A stretch of DNA of 64,000 nt from Catajapyx aquilonaris (lineage: Eukaryota): NCBI GenBank assembly GCA_000934665.2, contig JYFJ02001042.1, forward strand, positions 1-64,000, read 5' to 3'. The first letter of the stretch is position 1, and each line of letters begins with the position of its first letter. Below, in pieces: positions 10,071 to 25,653 of the stretch. Below the pieces are notes generated by a model. That model was not told the DNA's origin. It saw nothing but the letters and a program-made list of their open reading frames with translations, and did no database searches. The position numbers were made by a program, and so were the translations under genes.

Positions 10071-13000
10071 TTAATACTGGTACCAGGGTTGCTTCCGGAC
10101 CCAGCGGAGACGGATCCCAGCGTCCGTGCGGATCTTGATGGAAGCTGCTTCGGCTGCACGAACAGTTTCCTTCACCGATTGCATCAGGTTCTGAGCATTG
10201 CCCACCAACATGTCTGTGGCCTCCTGGTCTTCCTCGGTGCCTGCACACGAAGTTGTTACAATAGATTAAACATCACTCCACATGCAGACATTTATGTCAT
10301 AATTTTTTGTGTGGCTTTGAGGCTGTTACAAGTTGGAACAATTGCATCATTTTATAAAAATGATAGCACATTAACATTTATGCAAAGCACATAATGTGTG
10401 GTGATGAATTCAGCATAGTGCTGCCAGCTCGATTTCCAAGCCTCCAAACCATAATATTTAAAAATGTGCTCAAGTGCATTTAACTACTAATATCTACAAG
10501 CTACCAGAATGGTGAGATAATAATCTGGCCACACTTGATGTTCAAAGAGTCTCCTTTAGTTGACGTCGGTAGCTAAAAGACTACCATGCTGGATGACATG
10601 AGACAGGAGTACAGAAGAAGAGCTAGGACAAATAACCACAACGATATAAACTGCAACTCCATCATGCCTGTACCAACGACTACTACTTACGAGTGCAAGA
10701 TCCTAACAATCCACCTACTGTAGGCAAATGGAAAAAGAGACTCTTTAAAAAATGAACACCCAACAACTCCAAAAAAAATAAGAAAATATGTCACGATTCT
10801 TCCAGTTTCACACTCCATTCCATTTTAAAAATACATTTAAAAATTGGGAAGGGGCATGTTGGAGTAAAGTGGTGTTTTAACTGATTCTTCTGTTGCCGAA
10901 TATTATGCAAGTGTCAACAATGAAAATCCTTCAATACTGCATGCTGTGCCACTACCACTTAGACTGTGAGCTAATAATAATTTTTTGATATAGGTGACCA
11001 AAATGGAGTACTGGTTTTATAACTTCAGTTAATGTTCCTAGATTTCTCATTTAAGGTTGGGATGGTTGCAGGGAAAAATTTTCACTCTCGTTTATTTGGA
11101 GAAGTCAAACTGTTCGCTTCTGGGTTATCCTGCCAATAAGTGGAATTTTTCACTTCCATCATGTAACATAAGCTCTGCTGGATTGCCGGGCATTTAATTA
11201 TATTCAAAAGTACATGTGCCCACACTACCTAGTTTAGCAAAATCATTAAACCAGCCAGTTTCTGATGTTAATTTTGACACACTCTTAAATAATTGTTTCC
11301 CAGTTCAAGTTTGATAGTGTCAGCATCAGTATTAAGAATTGTCATTGTGTGGAGGAAAGGGTGTTTTGGGAGCCAAAGAAACCAGTCATGCACAGGCTTC
11401 TCCTGCCATTCATGCCCTTCAACACTTCTTTCGAAACACAACACAGCGACATCGATGCATTCAAAAACTGCCTGCACGACTGCTCTAACTATGATTAAAA
11501 AGGGAAATCTGTAAACGACAAAGGTCATAAATTGGGGGAACAAACTGAAAGAACTTTTTTTTTTTCTGCTGCAACCTGGTTATTAAGACTCAACATGACT
11601 CGTATTTCACTGTAAATTCCAACAAGGGACCAGATTCAAGCATTAAGTCATGCATCATTCAAATCGCCATCCTTCAAATTGTGACAAACTACATTCCCAG
11701 GCTTAAACAAATTCAAAGCTTAGATATAACTTACTTAAAACATTATGGTATTTCCAGTACAATACACCATAACACTATTACAATACCAAAAGTATTACAA
11801 ATTTTTAAATTTTGAAAGTAGCTTGTGATAGCTGTGCTTCATTGTTTTGTGCTGGTGCATACATTTTTAACAACTATATCATTTCTGTATAAAGGTATAA
11901 ATATCTTACATGAGAAGTGGTTCGATTTGAATTTGTCAAGCCTAGGAGCCATCCACAACAAACCAACAACTTTCATGTGATTGGAGAAATGCAAAAACAA
12001 AACATGAACGAAACAACTGTGTTCCAATACACAAGGCCATATATAAAAGGAAAGAATAAAATGCATAAGTATGAGACAGAGCCAAGAGCTTTACCCCCAA
12101 AGATTTCCCCATCAGCTGCGCGAGGGATGATCTCTGTTAAGGAGGAAATAACTGGTTAGAATTTTTTCCCCCAAATATTTGTTGCCTATTATTTTCTGAG
12201 GAATTAAAATTTCACATTTTTGACAAACCCTTCTGAGGCTTAAATTGAAGCCGAACTTACCCTGAGCTCCCAACATCGTTGCTTTGACAGTTGAAAGTAT
12301 TTTGAGCTGCGTGCCAATGGTAGGAATCCTCTCACATACTTGCAGAAGGTTCTGTAAGAAAGTACAGTTACTGGTATTACCAAGGGGCTCATTATACAAT
12401 TTAAGTTTGTTTAAGAAAAGTTGTCCATTATGGCTTCCTCTGCATCATGGTAATATTAAGGCCATCAAGTAGGTTTTTCATTTCTCTCCCTATGCATTAT
12501 TCAATCTCCAGCATCATGTCGTAAAATATTACAACAATTCACTAATTACGTTCCTACATGTATTACAGCAATAGAGGCATACCGTCCTCATTCTCTTGTC
12601 AGTGCACTGCCTGGCGAGCTCCTTCGCCAACCTGGTGACTTCCTCGGAGGCTTCTGCAATGGCTTTGGCACAAGCAATGAGATCCTTCTTGGTGCCCCCT
12701 TCTCCTCTCACCAACTGGGATAACCGTCCCATCAGGATGGCCATCTTCTTTGCGGCTGCAATAATGTCGTTGTCCTTGCTGGACCATTGGCGCACTTCTT
12801 GATGCAGGCCATGGGCAGCCATCTACAACCAGAGTGAACTCCAATTAATTCCGATACTTAAGAGGATGATGTGAAAATTATTTAATGCCGCACCATGATA
12901 GGTTGATTTGGTTGGGGTGCATGCATGAACATGTCATCTTCGTCATCCGTCTCTGGTGGTGGAGGACGAGGTGGAGCCATTTCTCCTGGCAGTGGTGGTC

Positions 13001-16000
13001 TTGGTGGAGCCACATCTAAAAGAGCAGTCATGTTACAAAACCTTACCTACAAGAGATGAATGTGCTGGAAAATAATTTTTTAAAATGGAATCTAGATGCT
13101 TGTAGCTGTCATACAAAATCTGCCATGCTCAATCCCAAACAATGCAAATCTTACTCTAAGAAGAGACAAGCTCTTGTGCACACTCCACATAAATACACTT
13201 TCAGCAATGTCAAACTGATTGTTGCAATAGTCATGCAGTTCTTCATTCCGTACTCACCAAAAAAGTAACAGTAATGAGGAATCATGCCTAGGGGAATTGC
13301 ATGGAAGAATAAAACGGGGAAAACATCATGCACAGGTTAATAATAATGCAAGTCACTCAATTCTCAAAAAACACGGTTGGGGCACAACAACAACAATGAA
13401 AAGATGTGTCGAAGCATGTTCGTTCGCTGCATGGATATTTCTCCCTGCAAGAGAAGTGGTACGACAAAAGTAGAGGTGGAAAATTTCCATGGCATTCGAG
13501 AGAAACTCTGCATTCGTCCTGCCGATGGCAAAGTGCATTAGCCAGACATTTCCCAAAAACAGGAGTGAAACTTTTACAAATCAGCCAAAAGAGTGGACAT
13601 CAGATAATGATACAAAATATACGGACGCAATAATGAAGGGGGAAGAAAATAAAAGGACACACGACACAGTAAAAGCTGATCCAACACTGACCCTTGCTGC
13701 ATCACATCACATGCACATTCACAGTCCAACAGCAAACTGCATTTATAACTGTTGGGAAAGAGAAAGAAAAAAAAAAAACAACCACCAATTCCCACTTAAC
13801 TACTTCTACACCAATTTGATTTTTCAAAAATCTCCATCTACTAGGAAATAAAATTTAGAAATGATTGAAATGAAAGGACTCAAATTTTTGGTGTTTACCT
13901 CCATCCATTGCACTGTGAACGGGAGAATAAAACGGGCCCTCATCATCTGACGTTAATTCCTGGTAAAGCAAGTCTGACGTTTCGCCTTGAATCGGGAGAG
14001 AAGGGACGTGTATTGTGCAGGAGAGGGGGGGCCATTAATCACCCATCAGCAACAAAGACGGCACTCACACATATAACCACCAAAATATAAATTTTGCCTT
14101 TCAAAATTTTCTTTTGTGCATTAAAAAAATGCATGTCGTGCATGTGGGACGGAAAAAAAAATCAGAACAACCCACCGCACACCTCTCAACTCACACACAA
14201 AACCTTCCCAACGACCACAAACAAACAAGGTTAAATACCTCTTCCCCACTTGGGAATAGGACTGATGGCCCCGGCAGTTGTTGGGGAGCGTTTGCTCCCC
14301 AACAATGGAGGGAGAGGCGAATGAGAGGGAGACGGGCCTGGGGAAATTTGCTGCCTCACAGTCGGAGCCACTGCAATTCCAATAGGAAACGGGCAGAAAA
14401 GAAACCAAAAAAGGAAGTATGTATTACGGCTATTGAGATATGCAACAATGTCAATGTGGTTGGGCTTGTGTACCTTTTTCTTGGAAGAACTTGTACTGAG
14501 GTGGCGGCGATGGAGGTGGCAACGGTATAGTTTCTGGAAAACATTGTCGCAATCACAGCGGTTATGTTGACAGTGTAAAAAGTAACTTCACTACATTCAA
14601 AACTTAATATTGTTTGATCGGGGGATGAGGTAACCTTGAAGACTAGTAGGAAAGTGGGGCACAAAAAAATTGAACAAAATATTTCACACAGCACAACAGT
14701 TTGTAAAAAAAAATGAATAAGAGTGAGTGTAGGATTGCATAAGACAAGGTGCTGCAAACTATGTGAAATACCTTCCTTGGGAGGCCTAACTATTACAGGA
14801 ACTCTCCTCGGCCTGTCTTCTATTGCTGAAAGAAAACGTTCTTAGTTGGCTGTTGGCAGCGTAAAAAGAGAGAGAAAGAATAAAGATCAGAAAGCTGTGT
14901 ATCAGTCATGATGTCGAAATCTACGGATGCTGTTAATTTCTGCGAGCATGGTAGTCACATAGTGGAGTACACAAAAGGCACGGCAGTGTTAATTGTCTAT
15001 GAGATTTACTCTAAAACACTTTGAGACTGTACCTCGTCTACTAGTGGTTGGGGGAGTAGGTACGTCAAATATTTCATTGAAGTTTACTTTAAAGAGATCA
15101 TTGAAATCATCTTTCGGAGGTGCAGCTGTTCAAAAAGAAGGAGAGAAAGACAGGTTGAAAAAATAGACCACACTGGAAGAAGATTATTATGTTCTTTTTA
15201 AAAATATGTACAACTTTGTGAATCTTCTACGGTTCAACTCTACCTATTATTCCTGAAAAAATTACATCCATGTTTGCGTAGCACAGTTAAAGCTTTTCCT
15301 TACCATTTAATCTCAAGGCACTCATGTCAGGTGGAGGAGGAATTGCTGGAGGCTCATCTTCCCAGGTAACAGTCACTGCATCTCTGACCTTTCCAACAGC
15401 ACCAATGAGCTGGAAAAAAATCGTGGCTGTTGAGACTCTCCATTACTTCAAAATGGACAGTGCCGATGCTTTACTCACAGCTCTGTTGTAGTCTCGCCAT
15501 CTGGACACTGCATGTTGATCATTCGTGTTCAAAGCTACTGCCTTTGCTGACTGAACCATCATTGGCACGCCTACGAGAAACAGTATTGGGAACTAGAACA
15601 GCGCAGGACACACGTAGCCTAACTAACCACATTAATTGAAACACCGTAGGCTACAAATGCAATATTCAAAAGTCACATTGTAAAGTAATGACATCATTCC
15701 ACTAATAATTGCACAAAGTGGTAAAGCAAAATAAAACCCTTGAAATTAAAATACGCTATGTAACTATACACACAACACTCAGAGTACGAAAGGTGGGTTG
15801 GGTTAATTTTTCGGTTTCACCTGAGATTGAACGGGTGGCATCAACTTACAGGCTTGCAGTTCTTCGGCTGCTTTGTTGATCTGAGCAATGAACTGCGGAT
15901 CCTCTGAATTGTCTGATTCCTGCTTGGCTATCATGAGCACGCGATTGGCCAGGCGTGCAATGCTCGAAGTGTTGTCCACCATCTTCTGTGGCTGCTGGTT

Positions 16001-19000
16001 GCGGATGGCATCCTCACAGAGAATGGTGTGTCTTTTCATCTGTTCCTCTGGGGACGTGCATTGGGCACAAAACATTAGGGGATGGGAAAGTCAAGGAAGG
16101 ATGGGGAGCAGTGCAGTTGGGATGCGGCTCATGCAAACTTAAGAAACCTCAAAATTATAAACGAAAGTAACTGCGCTACCATTTCCATAAATTCAATGCA
16201 AAATTAAACGGAACGCAAATGAAGGTGATCAACTGCAACCTTGCACCCTAGATATAACGCTGCAAATTAAATGACCTTACTTTGAAATTAAATGACTAAG
16301 AGCCCTTGTAATATTCAATGCACTAAGCTGTTGCATAGTTTCAAGGTGTGATGGGGGCGAAAGGATGTGATAAAATATAATTAGCTGACCTGTCTGCCTA
16401 ATGAACTGTGCTGTGTCAGTGGCGTCATCACAGAGATTCCTCATCCTCTGTACGCTGTCTGCATACTGTGTTCGCAAGTTCTCAAAATGCTCCACCGCAG
16501 CCTGGTTGTCGGGATAGGTCATCCTTATGTGACCAGCATTGACCATCTGTGGGGTCAAGCTCTCCACCTGGTTGGCCGAGGACAGCAAGGCCTCTGCCAG
16601 TTTCTTATTCCCTCCACTTCCACCAGCGGCCACCATCCTGGATGTCTTTGCCGCTCTGGTTGAAAACAGCTGCAATCCTTGCGCTTTTGCACCAAAGTTC
16701 TGCTCACGCCCTGGTGTTCCTAAATTGGGTATAAAATGTTGTAAAAATCCGTCTGCCTTGTACACAACACCAACGTACCTTCAGGAACTTCAACCGCTTC
16801 CGTAAACTGCTTGAGCGGAGTAATAATGTCGATGAAATCTTCAACCACCCTGTCTACAAGCGCACCCTGAATCTTGTTCTTCAGTTCATACAGCTTCTGG
16901 GACAGCATCCTGCAAAGCATAAATTTGTTAGAATCATATAGCACTTCATGAAAAAGTAAGCCCCAAAAGTTTATCCTAACTATAGTCAGCAACCTGCAAT
17001 GTTCCCATGTTCACAGTGAAGCATGAGTCGCAGGGGCAGCAGCAAAGAGCGCGGTTTTTTCCTCGCTATAAATAATTATGACATTATTAAAATTACACAT
17101 CTCGAGGGACTAACCCATCCAGCAAAAAAAAATTAACAGCGGCTCTGCCAGCTGAGTGTAAATATTCTCTGCTGTTGCAATAAACATGTCTTCCTGTAAC
17201 TTTGCATGGCCTATTTATAGTATAGGTCGCAAATGTGGCTGGGGTAAACAATCCACGTCTTCTCTCTACGACTTTCCAATATATAGGACTTGGGGCAGAA
17301 CGCCACTCTGTATAATTCAAAAGGCTTCAACTTCACCCGTGTGGCGTGCGGCCCATGAGAATTCGCGTTTTCTCGCCAATTTGCATTCATATTCGACCCT
17401 CAACGGGGGGGATGAAGGAGAATGTATGAATTACGCAACTTCCGGGCTCGCTCTACGCATTTGCTAAATTCCCGAGGTGTCCGCAATAAGTCCCGCGGAA
17501 ACCACATTTTGTGCACAGTATATTTTTGGAGAGATAAATGACTCACTTAACATTTGAAGCTATGCACATGGCTTAACACTTGAGGGTGAGGAAGAATTCA
17601 AGGAATTTCCAGCTGGTACGTACCTGGTGACTGCATGTGCTTGAGGCGAGTTCCCTTGACCTCTCTGGCAGAGGTCACCCAGCTGGTGGGTCAACGAGTG
17701 GACCTCATCGCACAGCCGGACCAACTCGGCCTTTTGGACCCCGGGCAGCCCCTCGGCGACCTTCCGCCCTTCCTCGACCACCAGCTCGATTGCCCTTTGC
17801 CCCAGCCCGCGGTCGTCCTGCCCCGGGTTGGTCAGCCACCTCCTGGCCTGCTCCAGCCTCCCTGAGACAGTGTGGGCCGGCTGCTGCATCCCGCTCTTGT
17901 CCACGTTGGTCACCGCTCGTTGGGTCAGTCGTCCCATCTCGGCCAGCTTGGTCTGGATGGCCCGGGCCAGGCTCTGCCCCTGGGCGCTGGCCCCCTTTCC
18001 ATCCTGCCTCAGCTCGCACAGGGCGTCCGTCATTGACCCCAGGTCACCGCACAGTTTCCTCAATGCCTCCCTGTCCCCGCCCAGGGCGCGGTCAGCTATC
18101 CTGGTACGGGTCATCTCCAGGATTTGCCTGACTGACCTCTCCCCGACACCTCCTCTGACCGCCAATGGGTCTTCCAGCCAATCGTGGGCCGCCTGCATCT
18201 TGCTCTCAACAGCAACCATGGCCTTCTTCATCACCGTCAAATTGTCCGCGTCCCATTCGTCCTCGTCGTACGTGGTCAGCTGGAGGACTCTGATTATCTC
18301 GTTGATTTCATCCGTCATGCGACGTGCCAGGTAATTGCGGTTCTCCGCCGATTCTTCCGCACCTTTGCCACCTGGAGTTCAACACAGGTGCAAACACTGT
18401 TATGCAATAATGTGTCAACCCACAAAACTGTCAAAATTGAGTGAAGCCCAAGAAAATACATCCATTCAGTTTTTAATAAATGCAAGTAAAATAAATTATC
18501 GAAAATGACACTGAATTAATTTTACAAGTGTGGCAAACCCCTTTTTCTCAAAACTGGTCTCGTGTGGGTTGACTCATTATTGCATAACACCGCCAATTTT
18601 ACAAACTTTGTTTCCTGATGGGAAAGGTGAAATTTATACCGGTACGTCCTAGTTTGTTTCGACAGGAATTGATTGCAAACACACAGCTGTTCCTTTATCG
18701 GCAAACTCGGAGTGCAGTACATCGATTATAGCACAACCGCCTATAATTTTGTCCTTCACAAGTTTCGTAGCCACTGACATTTACTCTATCGATCATGAGC
18801 CGCACAAGGTATAGCTTACCTTGTGTGATGATCTGGATAAAGATCTTCATGCTGCAGATCAGGATGGGTGCCAGAGTCTTGACCTGATCCAAACACCTGA
18901 TCAGTATCTCCCTATGCACCTGGTGGGTCAGCTCCTTTTGACGACCATCAACCTCTCTGGAAACCTACAAACGATCCCATTAATGAATTTACTAGATCAA

Positions 19001-22000
19001 ATCCTAAATTTTGGGTAATTACACTTAAAAAAAAGTTTGGTCTTTGGACCATTCAGTGTACAAAGTTTCAGCACTCTCAGTAGTCCGAAAGTGAGTTAAG
19101 TAGCTCGGACATACAAACATACAAACTTTATGATTTATTTATTAGTCACTTATTGAATTGCCTAAAACGGGACGTACTTTACTAAGGCACGGGCTGAGGT
19201 CCTTGACGAATTGCACCAGATCTGCCATGGTCTCGATGACCTCTGCCACCGCCAGGTAGTCCAGCACTTTCTTGCATTCTCGTATGATTTTCCTAACCTC
19301 GGATTCGTCGAAGCAGAGGAGCAAAGCGGACGTTCCTTGCAGGATGCCCCTGGAGCCTTCGATCAGCTTCTTCCTGCGGCGGAGACATCTCATTAATATT
19401 ATACGACCACGACCCGTGACCAGCAATATTGTGGACTGACCTTGCTGGCCCGGAGAAAGGGTCGATCTTGAGCATTCCAGATGCATCTTCCAGTTGTCTA
19501 GAGGCGCCTTCGACACGGTACAAAGCAGCGGGCATGTCCTGCTTCAGGATGGCGTCGTCGCTGCTGTTGATCGTCTCTCTTCCAACCTATAGGGTCATAC
19601 GTGGTGTGTCATATTGCAATAGACAGCAGGTCATGCAAAGAACTCACCTTGACCAGGTTGGCCACTGCTTGACTGACCGCCAGAACCGGCTTCTGCAAAT
19701 CCGGCATTGCGTTGCCATCTTCAGCTTCTTCGTGGAGGATGACCAAACGAGACACCTGCAGACATCATGATTGTGCTCTTATTCATATTCACATGGACAA
19801 GTATATACATAAAATTTACGCTATTTAGGTCTTTTTTCTCATCGAACTGATTTGAGCTTCAGGTCTGCTACCTTACTCCTAGAAATGACTACATATTAAT
19901 TTTGTTAAAAAATTTCGTGGTCCCGGATATGAGGTTCATTTCCCTAGTTCGGTTCTATTTTAGCGGCAAGTCCCGGATTTGTAAAAAAAAATATACGGGG
20001 AGAATTTGTAGATCTGGCACATTGTCAAGTGGGGGAAGAGTAGAAAGCGGGGTTAGCCCATCCCCCCCTACCCACGCCCCCAACTTTTATTCCCTTAGTT
20101 GAGTTCTTCGCCCCCGTCCATATATATACACACACAAAAAAGCCCCCATCTAATCTTACTTTTTGTTACAATAGTCAAGATCGATAACATTCTCCGTCTG
20201 GAGCCTCACCCTCGATTAAACAATGTCTACAATATAGAAACCCCACACATCTCCATCATTGTGCAATATATTTAAAAAAATCATGGCCAATGAGCCACTG
20301 ACAACCCACGGACAACTTATGTCCAATTAGATTTGAAGGTTAAAACGGGATCATTTGCCCTCGTTGGCTGGCTCCAAAGTTTGGCAAAGTTGACTGTAGA
20401 TCTGGCCAAGATGACATGGGGGTAGGAAACCTCTGGTGATGGGGGTGTACTAAGCAAGAATAGGAGGAAAAGGGGGGTGTGCGGGGGAGGGCCAGGAGCC
20501 AAGCAGGCAGGAAGAAGAAGCAGAATGGGGCGAAGATGGGGCGCTTTATTTTTAGGACAACCCACCCCCGTACCCATCAAATGCACTCTGACTCACCCTC
20601 CATTGCTTGGATTTGCCTGTCTGCTGGACATGTTCCTATTTGTACCCTCAAGAGTATAGGAATATTTTCCCCATAGAATAAAATGTGACTCGGTTTGTCC
20701 GGTGCCATCTATATGCAGATATGGTACTACGTCCAACAAAAAACCTTGATGCAAGTCCCTGAAAACCGTACAGTGTAGTTGCTCATATCGATCGCAAAGA
20801 GTCTGCCGATCTTTTTTTTTTTTTCCTTTTCTCTCAGTAAGATCAACCAAACATGACCAGAAAAACATGGGGAGGAATGCGCAGTGCAACCCACGTCTAA
20901 TGCCTTGAAAGGGAATGACCTCTTGTGATAATTTTACAGCCGTCTCGGGGAAACACATCAGTTTGATCCATCGAGTCACGTACTGCGGGTTTTTGAGGGT
21001 ACAAAGTGCTTTTTTTTAAAAAACAGGGTCTCGCCTTGGCTCTGTAGGGTCATGCTATCAGTTACAGTTCGTTGGAAAATGACTATAGCAATCCTGTTGC
21101 TAACACAAAATATACAAAAAAAGTGTGCCAAAAATGGCGGAATATGTATGGTGACAGAAGGACATTATGCGGTCAGCGAACTGATACTAAATCTTAGTAT
21201 TGACTACGGATTGAGGCCGAAGTTGTGAAACTTTCGGGAAGAGAACTTGCGTAATTATGGCCTACATGGAGACAAAATGTCCAATACTTGCGCAGAAATT
21301 CGCTTCGTTACTTTATGTATAATAAGATGAGCCGCAGTGTTGGAAACTGCATAGTTTGCTCAAATTGCATTATTTATATTGAGCGCCCGGGGAAGCAGAT
21401 GTAAGAGGTGGAAATTTAATTGTACGCCAAAAAAACAAAAAAAAACGTGTGGGGATAGGCTTACAGTATCATCCTGTGCTGTGTGCACAAAGAAACTTTT
21501 CATGAAATGCCAGGTGCTTTTATATGCAGCCTGGTTCTGCCTCAAAGTTTGCTCTTCTTGCCCTTAGGCCCACTAATTCATTAGCCTTTGCAGGGGGATA
21601 TACACCACATACGTATAGAAGATAAACAGTACCTTTTCGGCATTATCCTCATAAAGATAACAGGCTTAACATGCAGCTGGTAAAATGTCACTATTTCTAC
21701 AGTTTCTACAAAAGTTGACACCCTATAATTTTAGATCTATATATCCATAAACCGCTTTATGCATCTGCAATACTGTTATAATCCAATTATATCCGGACAA
21801 CACGAGCTCAGCTAAAACCACTGCCTGGAACCCACATTTTAGCCAAAATACCTCCGCCCTGGAACAATACCAGTCAGCTTTTTCCCCCCTTCCCCCTAAA
21901 AGTCGGCGATAAATATTTCCTATGGGCGCATATAATCCCCCCCGAAGAAATATTGGTGTCGGTGCAGCAAAACAACAGAAGCAGAGTCAACAAGAAGTTT

Positions 22001-25000
22001 GGTGGAGACACATTTTCCCATTCCTCTCTGGCCCTTTGCCCGAAAAAGCCCTCCGGAGCTGCCCCACTATTTCCATATAGACCCAACTTCGAAGGCTCCA
22101 TCTTTATTTCCAAGGCAGAAGAAGAAACACAAGTGGTAATTATTTTTAACACTGGGAAGCCTCTAGCTCTTGCTCCATTACCAACATTCACCTTCCAACC
22201 AAAGAGTACATACGAGTGATGGCCAAGTCCTGCCCTACACTGTTTACACTTTCACTTCGCCCACCTGCCCTTGTTTCTTTTCCAGCTCTCAATTATCTAC
22301 CTTGAGGGACGTCCAGGTATTAGATAACCGTGTCCCACTATGTAGAATTGGCTAAGCTCTGTCCGCCGTGACTCATCACCAACGTGCATTACAGTTCTAG
22401 TTTTCCCCGAGAGCTGCAGTAGTGTGCCAGTGCGCCACCTGGTAGTGGAATATCGTACTACGTCCAAATGGAATCTCCCAGCTCATATTCCCTTTGCTGA
22501 CAATATGAACAGGATAACACGTGCTGTAACGATGTTTGATGTATGAGTGTCCCATCCTAACATGCCTGCCAAACCACTCAGGGTAATAGGCCCCCCCCCT
22601 TAAAGCATCGGATGTGGCGCCTTCCTGATCAAGAGAGCTCCCTAATGGATGTGTGCCCTGGGAATGTGTGGACACATGTGTCTGACCCAACCTACAGGGC
22701 TCCCCAATCCTTCAGCTAAAAAAAAAAAAAAAACACACACACACACACAACAGGCGGCTGTTACGTTACTGTACTGTACAAATGTCATTGGAGCTGTTAC
22801 ACGGACGTTGGCCCTGATGGCCTCGTGCATCGTACGACCTTTACAATGCTGATTTTTCTTCTTCATGAAGTCAGCACGCATTCCAAGCTGCGAAAATTTC
22901 ACAACTCCCCACACACATAAAAGAGCGCCAAGCCCTTTAAAGGGCATCCACTTGGTGACGTCAAATGTCACGTCACACTCTGATGCGTAGGAAGTGGGAC
23001 AAGTTCCTAGATTTTTTTTGTGTGTGTGTAAGTAACAAGTCGTTTATCTTCACTCGCACAAGTCTAGAGATAAAGCCGAATTAGGCCGGTTATCTCCCAA
23101 GTGCATTCCATTCCGATTTGTAAAGCTTCTTGGGGAAGAAATGTTGCAAAACCCGGCGCCAAAGTGGCCTGAATGCGGTGGAAATCCCGTTCGGTCAACT
23201 GGTATAATGTGGGAAACCAGGTCCGCCCACATTGTATTTCTTCCAGTCGATCAATCCCAAAGTGCAACGCACTATATTTATTATTCGGTACCAAACCTGA
23301 CTATATTCGCAATTCTGAAGAAATTGAAATATGTATTGACTACAAATCATTCATAGAGTCGTGACATCATTTATGACATACTTATAATTTTTTCGGCATC
23401 TTTTGAACAATTTTCCTATTTGTTAATCTAATCCACAAAAGCTCTCAGAATAAGCCAGTAAATAATGTACACATGGCCCAGACACCCAGCCCAAAGTCGT
23501 GCCAACATAAACGAGACTGTAACTATTTTTTTTCCGTTTCTGAATGACTAGTTGTGTAACGTGTTGCCAACATATCGTATATCACAGTACGATAGAATTT
23601 CCATTCTTTTTTTATTATCCGGCTTTGCAGGCTCTGGCTGTGATTACGCTTTAATAGGGCCTAAGTAGCGTGTGTCCGGGACTCACTCAATAATTCAAAC
23701 TGAATTGTCCTAAAGAGAGAGCGAGAGCTAGAGAGGTCGGGGGTTGACCTTCCCAATGACGTTTTGTGGGACCCCCACCCCCCGAAAACTCTAGCCCCGA
23801 CCCACCCACCCATCCCAGGCATTTTGCAGATCAATATTGGGCAGGTGGAAAAGCTCCACCTCTCTCTCTACACGAGTTATTACACCTTGTCTTTCAAGCT
23901 GTCAATTTGAGTTGGAACGTCAAGATTAGTCAGATCACACCAAAATAATGTTTATCTCCAACGAGTGACATCTCCATTTTTTGTTTCTTTTTTCCTAATG
24001 CAGACACGGTGCACGGTGCAACGAACCCGGATTTAATTATTTACCCATTTAAAGCCATACCTGGCTCGAGTCCAGCAGACTGGTTGCTGGGGACAACAAC
24101 TGCAGCCTGCTGGTTGCTAATACAGCATCCCATTTATTTTATATACAAAAATGGAGGTCATGTTGATCAGTATTCGTCCGCATGCAGCCAGGCAGCAATG
24201 TGACCCCGATCTTAGGAAGATGTATTGCCACTTCCATTAAACTCTGTCATGCATAGCACTCATCAGCAATAGTCGCACGATTCCTAGGCCACACCCCAAA
24301 GATAGCGGCCATGAACTTTCTCTGATTTAATTAAAAGTAACACGTCCCGATCGACGTGATTTGCAATGGATCCGCAATGCAACGCTCGCAATTACGCCAC
24401 GTGCAACAATGCACCGCGACCTTGAAGACATCCGTTGCAGTCATCGAATTTTTACACTCTCTCGAAAAAAAAAAATGGTGTCGGGCTACGCCCTTGGGAG
24501 GAGCCCCCCGTAAAATTCGTGTAGTGTTGGGACCCGCCCCAACTTAAAATCTGGTCTGAACAGTCTCAAGGGACCATTTAAAGCCCCGCCCCCGCTTATA
24601 ACATTAAATCAAAAGACACACACACGTGCGTTATTCCGACGCGTTCCCGCGCGCCTTAAAAATAGGCGCGAAATATAAACAGGATCGGAGGGAAACGGGG
24701 TCAACTTTTTTTCCCCCCCCGCCCCCCGCCCCCTTCCCCCTTTCTCGGTAAGGAAATGTGTGTGTGCACAATCCGTGACGTACACTTTATCACCTGCGGT
24801 TTTCTTCCGTCTGATATCGCACGTGGAATATAACCGCACGTCATTTCCTAACCATCAGTTACGTAACTCCCCATCTTAATATGCAGTTAGCTCACCCCCC
24901 AGTTAAAACCGCCCACCAGCTTTAAAGTTTGTCATCCATTCTTACTTAACAACTAATGTAGCTAATAAGTAACTAATCAACCAATAAATAGCATCTTAAC

Positions 25001-25653
25001 TAACAACTAAATATAAGTAATAATAATAACTAATAAAAATAACTAATAAAATATTATTTAACTAATAACCAATAAAAATTATGTAACTAATAATAACTAA
25101 TTATGTAACTAATAGTATATAATAACTTAATATGTAACTAATAGTATATAATAACTAATTATGTAACTAATAGTAAATAATAACTTAATATGTAACTAGT
25201 AGTAAATAATAACTATTATTTAACTGATAATAAATTAACTAATAAGGGTAATAACCAACTAATAACAAATGTTGCTAAATAACTAATAACTGATCAAATT
25301 AACTTAATGACTGTTACAGGTGCATAATGTCTTCCAGAGGCGCCCATCAGTGAGTGACCCAGCTCACTTTGAAAGAAGACGATGAAGGTCAGGGAAACGG
25401 GTTGTCCTTGGCTCTTTTTTTTTTCTTATTCTTTTCCTTCTTTCATTGTAACCATATCCCCTTTTCTTTCTTTTTTTCCCCCCTCCCTATAATACCTTTT
25501 GGTCCCTTCCAAACCCGCCTCCACCAGCTTCAAGCGACAGGTTCTGACGATACTGGGGGATTTCTATTTATAGTAATACGCAGAGGTGTAACTCACCTGC
25601 TGGGCCACCGGCTCCAGGATGCTCTCGATGGTTCGGGTGTGAAAGACCGGCAT
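10071..25653 (-). CDS. Vinc: Vinculin, core isoform 959 aa. Exons: 25597-25653, 19648-19755, 19441-19586, 19178-19373, 18820-18964, 17624-18371, 16779-16909, 16390-16719, 15850-16047, 15479-15570, 15304-15409, 12894-13015, 12583-12822, 12261-12351, 10071-10240
   Basis: The N-terminus reads [33 protein letters not shown], the hinge reads [23 protein letters not shown], and the tail reads [16 protein letters not shown]...[27 protein letters not shown]...[12 protein letters not shown]. All introns are GT-AG with matching phases, and the spliced length is 2880 nt. Confidence 0.97.
10691..10717 (-). CDS. Vinc: Candidate vinculin tail micro-exon (27 nt, VGGLLGSCT)
   Basis: Acceptor tctctttttccatttgcctacag, donor C|gtaagt, phase 1-1, open frame. 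Confidence 0.4.
12095..12151 (-). CDS. Vinc: Candidate vinculin tail alternative exon (57 nt [19 protein letters not shown], or 39 nt from the acceptor at 12133)
   Basis: Two in-phase acceptors (ctaaccag and tccttaacag) share the donor G|gtaaag. Both versions are phase 1-1 and open. Confidence 0.55.
13258..13287 (-). CDS. Vinc: Candidate vinculin hinge micro-exon F (30 nt, [10 protein letters not shown])
   Basis: Acceptor caattcccctag, consensus donor G|gtgagt, phase 1-1. A UGCAUG lies about 20 nt downstream (13232-13237). Confidence 0.45.
13899..13985 (-). CDS. Vinc: Candidate vinculin hinge cassette exon E (87 nt, [29 protein letters not shown])
   Basis: Acceptor cccttctctcccgattcaag, donor GAG|gtaaac, phase 1-1, open frame. 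Confidence 0.65.
14239..14370 (-). CDS. Vinc: Candidate vinculin hinge cassette exon D (132 nt, [44 protein letters not shown])
   Basis: Acceptor ggaattgcag after a pyrimidine tract, donor GAG|gtattt, phase 1-1, open SP/P-rich frame. Confidence 0.7.
14474..14533 (-). CDS. Vinc: Candidate vinculin hinge cassette exon C (60 nt, [20 protein letters not shown])
   Basis: Acceptor tgttttccag, donor AAG|gtacac, phase 1-1, polyproline peptide. Confidence 0.7.
14772..14825 (-). CDS. Vinc: Candidate vinculin hinge cassette exon B (54 nt, [18 protein letters not shown])
   Basis: Acceptor gttttctttcag, donor AAG|gtattt, phase 1-1, open frame. Confidence 0.65.
15033..15125 (-). CDS. Vinc: Candidate vinculin hinge cassette exon A (93 nt, [31 protein letters not shown])
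   Basis: Acceptor cttctttttgaacag, donor G|gtacag, phase 1-1, open frame. Confidence 0.6.
18396..18594. mobile_element. MITE copy 1 (internally shortened, inverted relative to copy 2) in vinculin intron 5
   Basis: The ends TGTTATGCAATAATGTGTCAACCCAC and GTGGGTTGACTCATTATTGCATAACA are inverted repeats. Both subterminal regions match the element at 27404-27766. Confidence 0.8.
24940..25310. repeat. AT-rich degenerate minisatellite (TAACTAATA-based units) in vinculin intron 1
   Basis: Dozens of TAACTAATA(A/G) and ATGTAACTAATAGTA variants occur in an almost G-free tract. Confidence 0.85.

What the first reader, a model, noticed from the sequence alone, without database searches (positions are those of the whole stretch)
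13258..15125. Hidden array of six frame-preserving cassette exons in the vinculin proline-rich hinge
Seen: the 2.3-kb phase-1 intron between ...MSALRLN and DVAPPRPP... contains six segments (93, 54, 60, 132, 87 and 30 nt). Each has a pyrimidine-rich AG acceptor, a G|GT donor, a length divisible by 3 and an open phase-1 frame, and most encode P-rich, SP-rich or Tyr/acidic peptides ([31 protein letters not shown]). Established: the vinculin hinge binds VASP, Arp2/3 and vinexin/CAP-family SH3 proteins and links the autoinhibitory head and tail. Inference: this is a modular, combinatorial linker of up to +152 aa (up to 64 combinations) that could tune ligand binding, phosphorylation and activation by tissue. 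From memory and unverified, some insect vinculin isoforms carry a similar KW.RG...DLLYQEL segment, so exons D and E may be ancient while the full array may be lineage-specific.
Basis: partly seen in the sequence, partly recalled or inferred. Interest (0 to 1): 0.8.

Follow-up and report, generated by a model that had tools for sequence, protein, structure and literature searches.

The report
Vinculin hinge alternative-exon array, mostly conserved
An intron in an arthropod vinculin gene holds six possible optional exons; four match optional hinge segments already annotated in many other arthropods, so the finding is real but largely ordinary, while two of the six remain unproven.

Summary
On the minus strand, the 2288-nt phase-1 intron (15303..13016) of a vinculin gene contains six AG...G|GT segments of 93/54/60/132/87/30 nt, all open in phase 1. 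With thresholds set by the weakest of the six, the intron has 7 such loci. Other parts of the window and shuffles give about 1.7-2.0.

Four segments (A, C, D, E) are homologous, in the same order and at the same protein site, to optional hinge segments in predicted or transcript-derived vinculin isoforms of insects, decapods, a stomatopod, ticks and a centipede. B and F have no detectable homolog, and about two such loci are expected by chance.

The only run found shows a spliced contig that skips all six. Inclusion in this species is therefore unproven.

An AlphaFold2 model of a stick-insect isoform carrying A, C, D and E predicts the whole hinge as disordered.

The array is not hidden: database records list up to 8 hinge forms per species. 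Five literature searches found no paper describing it. Verdict: a new member of a kind known from annotation. Moderate-low interest.

The parts
15304..15409 (-). Constitutive vinculin exon ending ...[12 protein letters not shown] plus G (phase 1)
   Evidence: Spliced contig pieces and joints at 15409/15479 and 15304/13015; translation
13016..15303 (-). 2288-nt phase-1 hinge intron, GT..AG, holding the candidate cassettes
   Evidence: The joint skips 2288 nt with ends CT..AC on the + strand; sequence
15033..15125 (-). Cassette A, 93 nt, [31 protein letters not shown]. Conserved acidic/aromatic motif type ('DDIFKVDFxKIF').
   Evidence: Homologs at the same site in Penaeus, Cherax, Eriocheir, Oratosquilla, Bacillus, Periplaneta, Timema and ticks. 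Smith-Waterman score 59, 0 of 200 shuffles.
14772..14825 (-). Candidate cassette B, 54 nt, [18 protein letters not shown]. Unverified.
   Evidence: Good sites (ttttctttcag; AAG|gtattt) and in-frame tandem acceptors at 14819 and 14816. GC 0.50 against 0.36 in the flanks. No homolog: 147 of 200 shuffles score as well.
14474..14533 (-). Cassette C, 60 nt, [20 protein letters not shown]. Type '..QQYNYF[ST][DE]K'.
   Evidence: Tail QYKFFQEK against QYNYFSEK, 22 of 500 shuffles. Whole cassette 19 of 200. Lies directly before D, as in insects and Strigamia. Resembles hemipteran 'EIPPPPPPPAP...YRPNYFVEK'.
14239..14370 (-). Cassette D, 132 nt, [46 protein letters not shown]-rich with a conserved SP[LI]PKW.RG end.
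   Evidence: blastp against Strigamia 1.4e-8, Timema 1.3e-7 and Bacillus X2 1.2e-6, in a database of 120 proteins. Smith-Waterman score 95, 0 of 200 shuffles.
13899..13985 (-). Cassette E, 87 nt, [29 protein letters not shown]. Acidic Tyr motif [12 protein letters not shown].
   Evidence: Follows D directly in Timema, Bacillus, Athalia, Thrips, Periplaneta, Zootermopsis, Schistocerca and Strigamia. Smith-Waterman score 70, 0 of 200 shuffles.
13258..13287 (-). Candidate cassette F, 30 nt, [10 protein letters not shown]. Unverified.
   Evidence: Sites cccctag and TTG|gtgagt. No sequence homolog: 103 of 200 shuffles. GC below the flanks, 0.33 against 0.40. Only its position, size and Cys/Tyr content recall the last-position short cassettes of Athalia (GLQDYCQYDS) and thrips (VICSQNNLYID).
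12894..13015 (-). Constitutive exon (D)[40 protein letters not shown], the core proline-rich hinge
   Evidence: Contig piece 12894..13015 and joints; translation; conserved in all parsed hinges

Best explanation
The window carries an arthropod vinculin gene (minus strand, about 25653..10074). Its hinge intron holds the local copy of an old, arthropod-wide set of optional cassette exons.

Cassettes A, C, D and E are genuine alternative exons. B and F are candidates that may be lineage-specific exons or chance.

All cassettes are phase 1-1 and all preceding exons end in G. Any subset therefore keeps the frame, and each module encodes the same peptide whatever precedes it (shown from the sequence).

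The default mRNA skips all of them (shown). Regulated inclusion would lengthen the disordered linker between the vinculin head and tail by up to about 152 aa. It would also add short conserved motifs:
- an acidic/aromatic F-x-V-x-F-x-x-I-F motif (A)
- a Tyr-rich QY.FF.EK end (C)
- an SP-rich stretch ending SPIPKWGRG (D)
- an acidic [12 protein letters not shown]yr motif (E)

The inferred mechanism is that these modules change linker length and offer extra docking or phosphorylation sites in particular tissues. They would not touch the constitutive PPRPP ligand sites. That last step is inference only.
For: Gene identity: the 80-aa exon is 90-96% identical to arthropod vinculins. 1487 proteins had E<=0.001 and the best 120 were listed. 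tblastn maps the exons.

Site: in the 147 hinges that could be parsed, out of 198 proteins, every hinge insert lies between '...L.LN' and 'D.APPRPPLP'. 93 have an insert of 8 aa or more, 54 have none, and the longest is 154 aa. A few other short optional inserts lie elsewhere in the protein.

Homology: A, D and E each beat all 200 shuffles. The C tail scores 22 of 500. The order A-C-D-E matches Timema P0103, and C-D-E matches Strigamia P0012.

Combinatorial use elsewhere: 8 distinct hinge forms occur among the 11 listed Cherax isoforms. E occurs without D in Frankliniella X6 and Linepithema X2.

Transcript-level support for an A-type cassette: a 1007-aa protein on a 4932-nt contig (P0053) and a 1017-aa protein on a 7850-nt contig (P0086).

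Enrichment: 7 loci against about 2 expected.

Skipping form and exon borders.

Disorder: in the AlphaFold2 model of P0103, residues 745-890 and 895-921 have pLDDT below 50. These ranges include the A (763-782), D (822-862) and E (864-897) matches.

GC content is higher than the flanks for A to E.
Against: No read or contig shows any of the six cassettes included in this species. The single spliced contig joins 13015 directly to 15304. Contigs drop minor isoforms, so this shows the skipping form and is silent on inclusion.

B and F have no homolog among 78 distinct inserts, and about 2 chance loci are expected. F is AT-richer than its flanks.

No close relative is available. The best identity is 73% in a 250-aa head exon, so no codon-level conservation test could be run.

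Most comparison isoforms are computational predictions. I saw no D- or E-bearing record that is clearly transcript-derived.

The motif functions are untested.
Confidence: 0.8

Rival explanations
1. All six segments, B and F included, are used as independent cassette exons.
For: All six have usable sites and preserve the frame. B has a strong acceptor, tandem in-frame acceptors and an exon-like rise in GC. Polyneopteran insects have a variable 16-19-aa piece between the A core and C, and sawflies and thrips have a 10-11-aa Cys/Tyr cassette in the last position, as F is here.
Against: B and F score no better than shuffles against 78 known inserts. F has lower GC than its flanks. There is no RNA support.
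Confidence: 0.25
2. The cassettes are relics. They were alternative exons in ancestors but are no longer spliced in this species, which makes only the short hinge.
For: The only spliced contig skips all of them. Five apparently full-length vinculin mRNA contigs of unidentified organisms in metagenome data (L001-L004, L012) also lack inserts.
Against: A, C, D and E keep open frames, AG/GT sites and conserved motifs. A 132-nt open frame with retained SPIPKWGRG is unlikely after loss of constraint. One contig set cannot show absence.
Confidence: 0.07
3. The whole pattern is a chance set of splice-like sites and open frames in an intron.
For: 131 unfiltered AG..GT phase-1 open segments exist in the intron, so such segments are individually common.
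Against: 7 filtered loci against a mean of 1.7-2.0, never reached in 50 tiles or 500 shuffles. A, D and E have specific homologs at the same protein site in many taxa.
Confidence: 0.02

Closest known systems
Multi-isoform vinculin records of arthropods in public databases. Examples are Cherax quadricarinatus X4-X21, Eriocheir sinensis X3-X16, Oratosquilla oratoria X3-X15, Thrips palmi X2-X8, Athalia rosae X3-X10, Bacillus rossius X2-X6 and Periplaneta americana X3-X9, as the sources name them.
   Same: The insertion site is the same, between ...L.LN and D.APPRPPLP. The module types A, C, D and E are the same and in the same order. The maximum extra length is similar (154 aa against 152 aa). 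Every module starts with A, D, E, G or V, as expected if a G is carried over from the preceding exon.
   Different: The window's species is not among them: best identity is 96% in the most conserved exon and 73% in a head exon. It lacks the decapod 18-aa (APCFFMDATAPYYYGDLQ) and 20-aa (DHGSSNGH...) modules. It has two candidates, B and F, with no counterpart.
Vertebrate metavinculin, a 68-residue muscle-specific insert in the tail domain (abstracts of PMC3365496 and PMC6726196 seen in the listing).
   Same: Both are alternative cassette splicing of the same gene that adds residues without breaking the frame.
   Different: Metavinculin is one exon in the actin-binding tail and changes actin bundling. 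These cassettes lie in the proline-rich hinge, are several, and are predicted disordered. The window may have its own small tail cassette at 12133..12095.
Tissue-regulated cassette exons in disordered linkers that add short linear motifs. This is a general principle recalled from the literature and was not checked here.
   Same: The exons are short, symmetrical in phase, encode disordered motif-bearing peptides and sit between folded domains.
   Different: No tissue regulation or binding partner has been shown for any of these modules.

Membership tests
Vinculin gene (Pfam PF01044 family) | Exons encode vinculin head, hinge and tail with high identity to known vinculins | tested here: met
   The 80-aa exon is 90-96% identical to proteins that carry PF01044. 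tblastn of three full-length vinculins maps exons from 25653 to 10074.
Arthropod vinculin hinge cassette array | Cassettes lie in the intron between the ...L.LN exon and the D.APPRPPLP exon | tested here: met
   for the window. for the 147 parsed hinges.
Arthropod vinculin hinge cassette array | A-type module with an F-x-V-[DN]-F-x-x-I-F motif | tested here: met
   Window FKVNFNEIF against FKVDFMKIF, FNVDFNSIF and NFNEMFDV. 0 of 200 shuffles.
Arthropod vinculin hinge cassette array | C-type module ending QY.[YF]F.[DE]K, directly before D | tested here: met
   22 of 500 shuffles for the tail, with the position conserved. This is weaker than for A, D and E.
Arthropod vinculin hinge cassette array | D module (S/P-rich, ending SP.PKW.RG) followed by E module (DLLY[QH]ELTSDD) | tested here: met
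Arthropod vinculin hinge cassette array | Cassettes are included in some mRNAs of this species | tested here: inconclusive
   Only one run was found. Its contig shows the form that skips all cassettes, and contigs cannot show absence of minor forms.
Metavinculin-type splicing | The insert lies within the tail (actin-binding) domain | tested here: not met
   The six segments lie upstream of the tail exons, in the hinge. A separate 39-nt candidate in the tail intron is a different feature.

The most novel reading that the evidence does not exclude
Arthropod vinculin carries an ancient combinatorial array of hinge cassettes that the searchable literature does not describe. Type A is shared with ticks, and types C, D and E with a centipede, so the array predates the split of the major arthropod lineages. 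Its conserved motifs (FKVDFx[22 protein letters not shown]) would be docking or phosphorylation sites for unknown partners that tune adhesion mechanics by tissue. In this species the array would also have gained two private modules, B and F.
Probability: 0.5. Interest if true: 0.5.

Novelty: new member of a known kind. Interest (0 to 1): 0.33.

Why it matters
Vinculin's hinge links the autoinhibitory head and tail. It carries the binding sites for VASP, for the vinexin/CAP family and for Arp2/3 (passages of PMC3526775).

Work on vinculin splicing has centred on the vertebrate tail insert, metavinculin. The data here show that arthropods vary the hinge itself with several conserved, disordered modules.

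This gives testable candidates for tissue-specific regulation of adhesion. It also gives conserved motifs with no known partner.

For this window the practical value is annotation. A gene model should carry at least four optional exons in this intron, and probably one in the tail intron.

Tried and rejected
RNA evidence:
- No RNA holder was listed. One run of unknown kind (X1) was laid. It gives the skipping junction and no cover on A-F.
- A 288-nt unspliced contig on 13331..13618 stays unexplained. Rfam gave 0 matches on 12800..15500. Folding gave z-scores of +1.39 and +0.33. The piece is unique in the window.

Genome and earlier findings:
- No whole genome is held for this window.
- Earlier findings of this scan: none.

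Further protein searches:
- The third homolog search, with D (43 aa, longer proteins, E<=10), had 15 candidates and none scored.
- phmmer of D against 1.84 billion representatives gave 0 hits. The query is short and compositionally biased, so this says little.

Metagenome contigs:
- The scan with the 250-aa head exon gave 27 loci, the best at 70% identity over the whole exon. None was a close relative.
- The apparently full-length mRNA contigs L001-L004 and L012 have no hinge insert.
- tblastn of the six peptides against the loci gave only proline-run noise.

Splicing-regulator motif:
- GCATG occurs 5 times against 2.0 expected, 60 of 1000 simulations reach that, and the count is similar on both strands. 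It is not significant.

Literature:
- Five searches (listings and abstract starts only) found no paper on hinge cassettes of arthropod vinculin.
- Papers outside the held library were not searched.

Full report
**What is in the sequence**

The gene reads on the minus strand. The exon that ends ...[12 protein letters not shown] stops at 15304 with one extra G (phase 1). The exon that begins (D)[20 protein letters not shown]... starts at 13015. The intron between them is 15303..13016, 2288 nt.

| Segment | Coordinates | Length | Peptide |
|---|---|---|---|
| A | 15125..15033 | 93 nt | [31 protein letters not shown] |
| B | 14825..14772 | 54 nt | [18 protein letters not shown] |
| C | 14533..14474 | 60 nt | [20 protein letters not shown] |
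| D | 14370..14239 | 132 nt | [44 protein letters not shown] |
| E | 13985..13899 | 87 nt | [29 protein letters not shown] |
| F | 13287..13258 | 30 nt | [10 protein letters not shown] |

Each follows an AG preceded by 8-12 pyrimidines in 14. Each ends in G before GT, with 5-6 of 8 donor consensus positions. Each is a multiple of three and open in phase 1. Every preceding exon ends in G, so each module encodes the same peptide whatever lies upstream.

**Is it more than chance?**

Unfiltered, the intron holds 131 AG..GT, 3n, phase-1 open segments, so single segments mean little.

I then set thresholds at the weakest of the six. Under these, the intron has 13 segments in 7 distinct loci on the minus strand and none on the plus strand. 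Fifty other 2288-nt tiles of the window (both strands, real exons included) give a mean of 1.66 and a maximum of 4. Five hundred shuffles give a mean of 1.96 and a maximum of 6.

The cluster is real, but about two loci of this quality are expected by chance.

**RNA evidence in this organism**

No whole genome is held. No RNA run is listed, only one run of unknown kind.

When laid on 12400..15700, that run gives a 1912-nt contig. It is spliced 12822/12894, 13015/15304 and 15409/15479, with GT..AG ends. This fixes the flanking exon borders. It also shows that the mRNA skipping all six segments exists. Contigs drop minor isoforms, so it says nothing about inclusion.

A second, unspliced 288-nt contig lies on 13331..13618, between E and F. 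I could not explain it: there is no Rfam match, no stable fold and no repeat in the window.

**What the gene is**

The 80-aa exon 12822..12583 retrieved 1487 proteins with E<=0.001. The best 120 listed are all arthropod vinculins at 89-96% identity, and none is identical.

Three full-length vinculins map by tblastn from 25653 to 10074.

A second search with the 250-aa head exon (P0121) gave at most 73% identity: thrips 73%, other insects 67-73%, decapods 68%, myriapods 68-71%. No close relative is in the database, and I did not try to name the species.

**Comparison with other arthropod vinculins**

Many species are listed with long series of isoforms, named X2 to X21 by the sources. I extracted the hinge from 149 of the 198 proteins and parsed the insert in 147.

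In these parsed hinges, every hinge insert lies exactly between '...L.LN' and 'D.APPRPPLP'. That is the site of the window's intron. Of the 147, 93 have an insert of 8 aa or more and 54 have none. There are 78 distinct inserts, and the longest is 154 aa. Some isoforms also differ by short optional inserts elsewhere in the protein (see 'Noticed beside the finding').

The inserts are modular:
- **A type:** AELGNIFNVDFNSIFGL (Bacillus, Periplaneta, Timema); ..DDDIFKVDFMKIFGEPE (Penaeus, Cherax, Eriocheir, Scylla, Portunus, Oratosquilla); ..PNFNEMFDVKIEVPP (ticks).
- **C type:** ends ..QQYNYF[ST][DE]K (thrips, sawflies, termites, cockroach, stick insects, Hemiptera, Strigamia).
- **D type:** VGQ..SPG..SPLPKWARG.
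- **E type:** DNADLLYHELTSDDD.., directly after D.
- Decapods add an 18-aa and a 20-aa module.
- Sawflies and thrips have a 10-11-aa Cys/Tyr module in the last position.

Timema P0103 has A-C-D-E in the window's order. Strigamia P0012 has C-D-E, including an E tail (TSDDELSPRYQSSP) like the window's ([14 protein letters not shown]).

**Statistical test of homology**

I compared the best local alignment of each window peptide to the 78 inserts with shuffles of that peptide:

| Peptide | Best score | Shuffles reaching it |
|---|---|---|
| A | 59 | 0 of 200 |
| D | 95 | 0 of 200 |
| E | 70 | 0 of 200 |
| C (whole) | 45 | 19 of 200 |
| C tail (QYKFFQEK against QYNYFSEK) | 31 | 22 of 500 |
| B | 27 | 147 of 200 |
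| F | 22 | 103 of 200 |

A, D and E are homologous to known modules. C is probably homologous, helped by its position before D and its likeness to hemipteran 'EIPPPPPPPAP...YRPNYFVEK'. B and F have no detectable counterpart.

Side evidence splits B from F. B has an exon-like GC rise (0.50 against 0.36) and tandem in-frame acceptors. F is AT-richer than its flanks (0.33 against 0.40). F shares only position, size and Cys/Tyr content with the last-position modules of sawflies and thrips.

**Combinatorial use**

In other species the modules do combine. The 11 listed Cherax isoforms show 8 hinge forms. E occurs without D in Frankliniella X6 and Linepithema X2. D occurs without E in Oratosquilla X14.

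Most of these are computational models. Some records must be transcripts, because a protein of about 1000 aa sits on a contig of 4.9-7.9 kb. Two of these (P0053, P0086) carry an A-type module. I saw no clearly transcript-derived record with D or E.

**How it probably works**

An AlphaFold2 model of Timema P0103 was built from a 141-sequence alignment. Mean pLDDT is 69.4. The head and tail helices are confident, but residues 745-890 and 895-921 have pLDDT below 50. The only secondary structure there is a 4-residue helix at 772-775, inside the A motif. The A, D and E matches (763-782, 822-862, 864-897) all lie in that zone.

The modules are therefore best read as disordered linker extensions that carry short motifs.

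In vertebrates the hinge binds VASP, vinexin/CAP/nArgBP2 and Arp2/3 (passages of PMC3526775). The corresponding PPRPP core here lies in the constitutive exon, not in the cassettes.

I infer that inclusion changes linker length and adds extra docking or phosphorylation sites: SP sites in D, and a YQEL tyrosine with acidic TSDDE in E. It would not switch the classical ligands. None of this is shown.

**Novelty**

The array is visible in public isoform records for many arthropods, so it is not a new kind of thing. Here it is an unannotated member.

Five literature searches (listings and abstract starts only) returned only work on metavinculin and unrelated genes. No paper describes hinge cassettes in arthropod vinculin. 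Papers outside the held library were not searched.

Further attempts added nothing: D as a query, metagenome contigs, a GCATG motif count and earlier findings of this scan.

**Noticed beside the finding**

The tail intron 12260..10241 is also phase 1. It holds a single filtered candidate, 12133..12095 (39 nt, [13 protein letters not shown]). It matches in length, place and pattern a 13-aa optional tail segment of other arthropods, EILPRRELAELEG or ETLPRSEMAELHG, between TMLGAQ and G[TS]EEDQEAT. Other species' isoforms also carry a 20-aa optional segment before LLSAVG.. and 4-6-aa head micro-inserts.

**Verdict**

- Use in this species is unproven.
- The functional claims are speculative.
- This is a new member of a kind known from annotation, of moderate-low interest.

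Noticed in passing
window 12095-12133 (minus): The phase-1 tail intron (12260..10241) has one candidate 39-nt cassette, [13 protein letters not shown]. Its sites are ttatttcctccttaacag and gtaaag. It has the same length and place as the optional 13-aa tail segment EILPRRELAELEG / ETLPRSEMAELHG of Rhodnius, Macrosteles and thrips, between TMLGAQ and G[TS]EEDQEAT. From memory this is near the metavinculin insertion site.
   Followed up: partly
window 13331-13618: An unspliced 288-nt contig of run X1 (depth 6.8, against 12.8 for the mRNA contig; 0 differences) lies inside the hinge intron between E and F. It has no Rfam match, no stable fold on either strand and no second copy in the window.
   Followed up: partly
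window 13047-13127 and 14183-14248 (minus): Two further segments pass the same splice-site, frame and length filter as the six: 81 nt ([27 protein letters not shown], donor match 7 of 8) and 66 nt (overlapping the end of D). Neither was compared with the known inserts (not run through or 28); about two such loci are expected by chance.
   Followed up: partly
window 14816-14825, 15086-15110, 14337 (minus): In-frame alternative acceptors lie inside the cassettes. B has tandem AGs 6 and 9 nt downstream of its main acceptor. A has two further acceptors, and D has one.
   Followed up: no
window 15410-15478 (minus) and proteins P0151, P0168: Decapod isoforms carry an optional 20-aa segment (VLQPG...) just before LLSAVGEVRR. 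At that exon junction the window has only a 69-nt intron, whose read-through hits a stop. Hemipteran and sawfly isoforms also have 4-6-aa head micro-inserts (DQRK, NQHLAN).
   Followed up: no
loci L001-L004, L012: Metagenome collections hold apparently full-length vinculin mRNA contigs (ORFs of 960-1029 aa) from unidentified organisms (not named here). They are 49-70% identical to the window's head exon, and all have the short hinge.
   Followed up: partly
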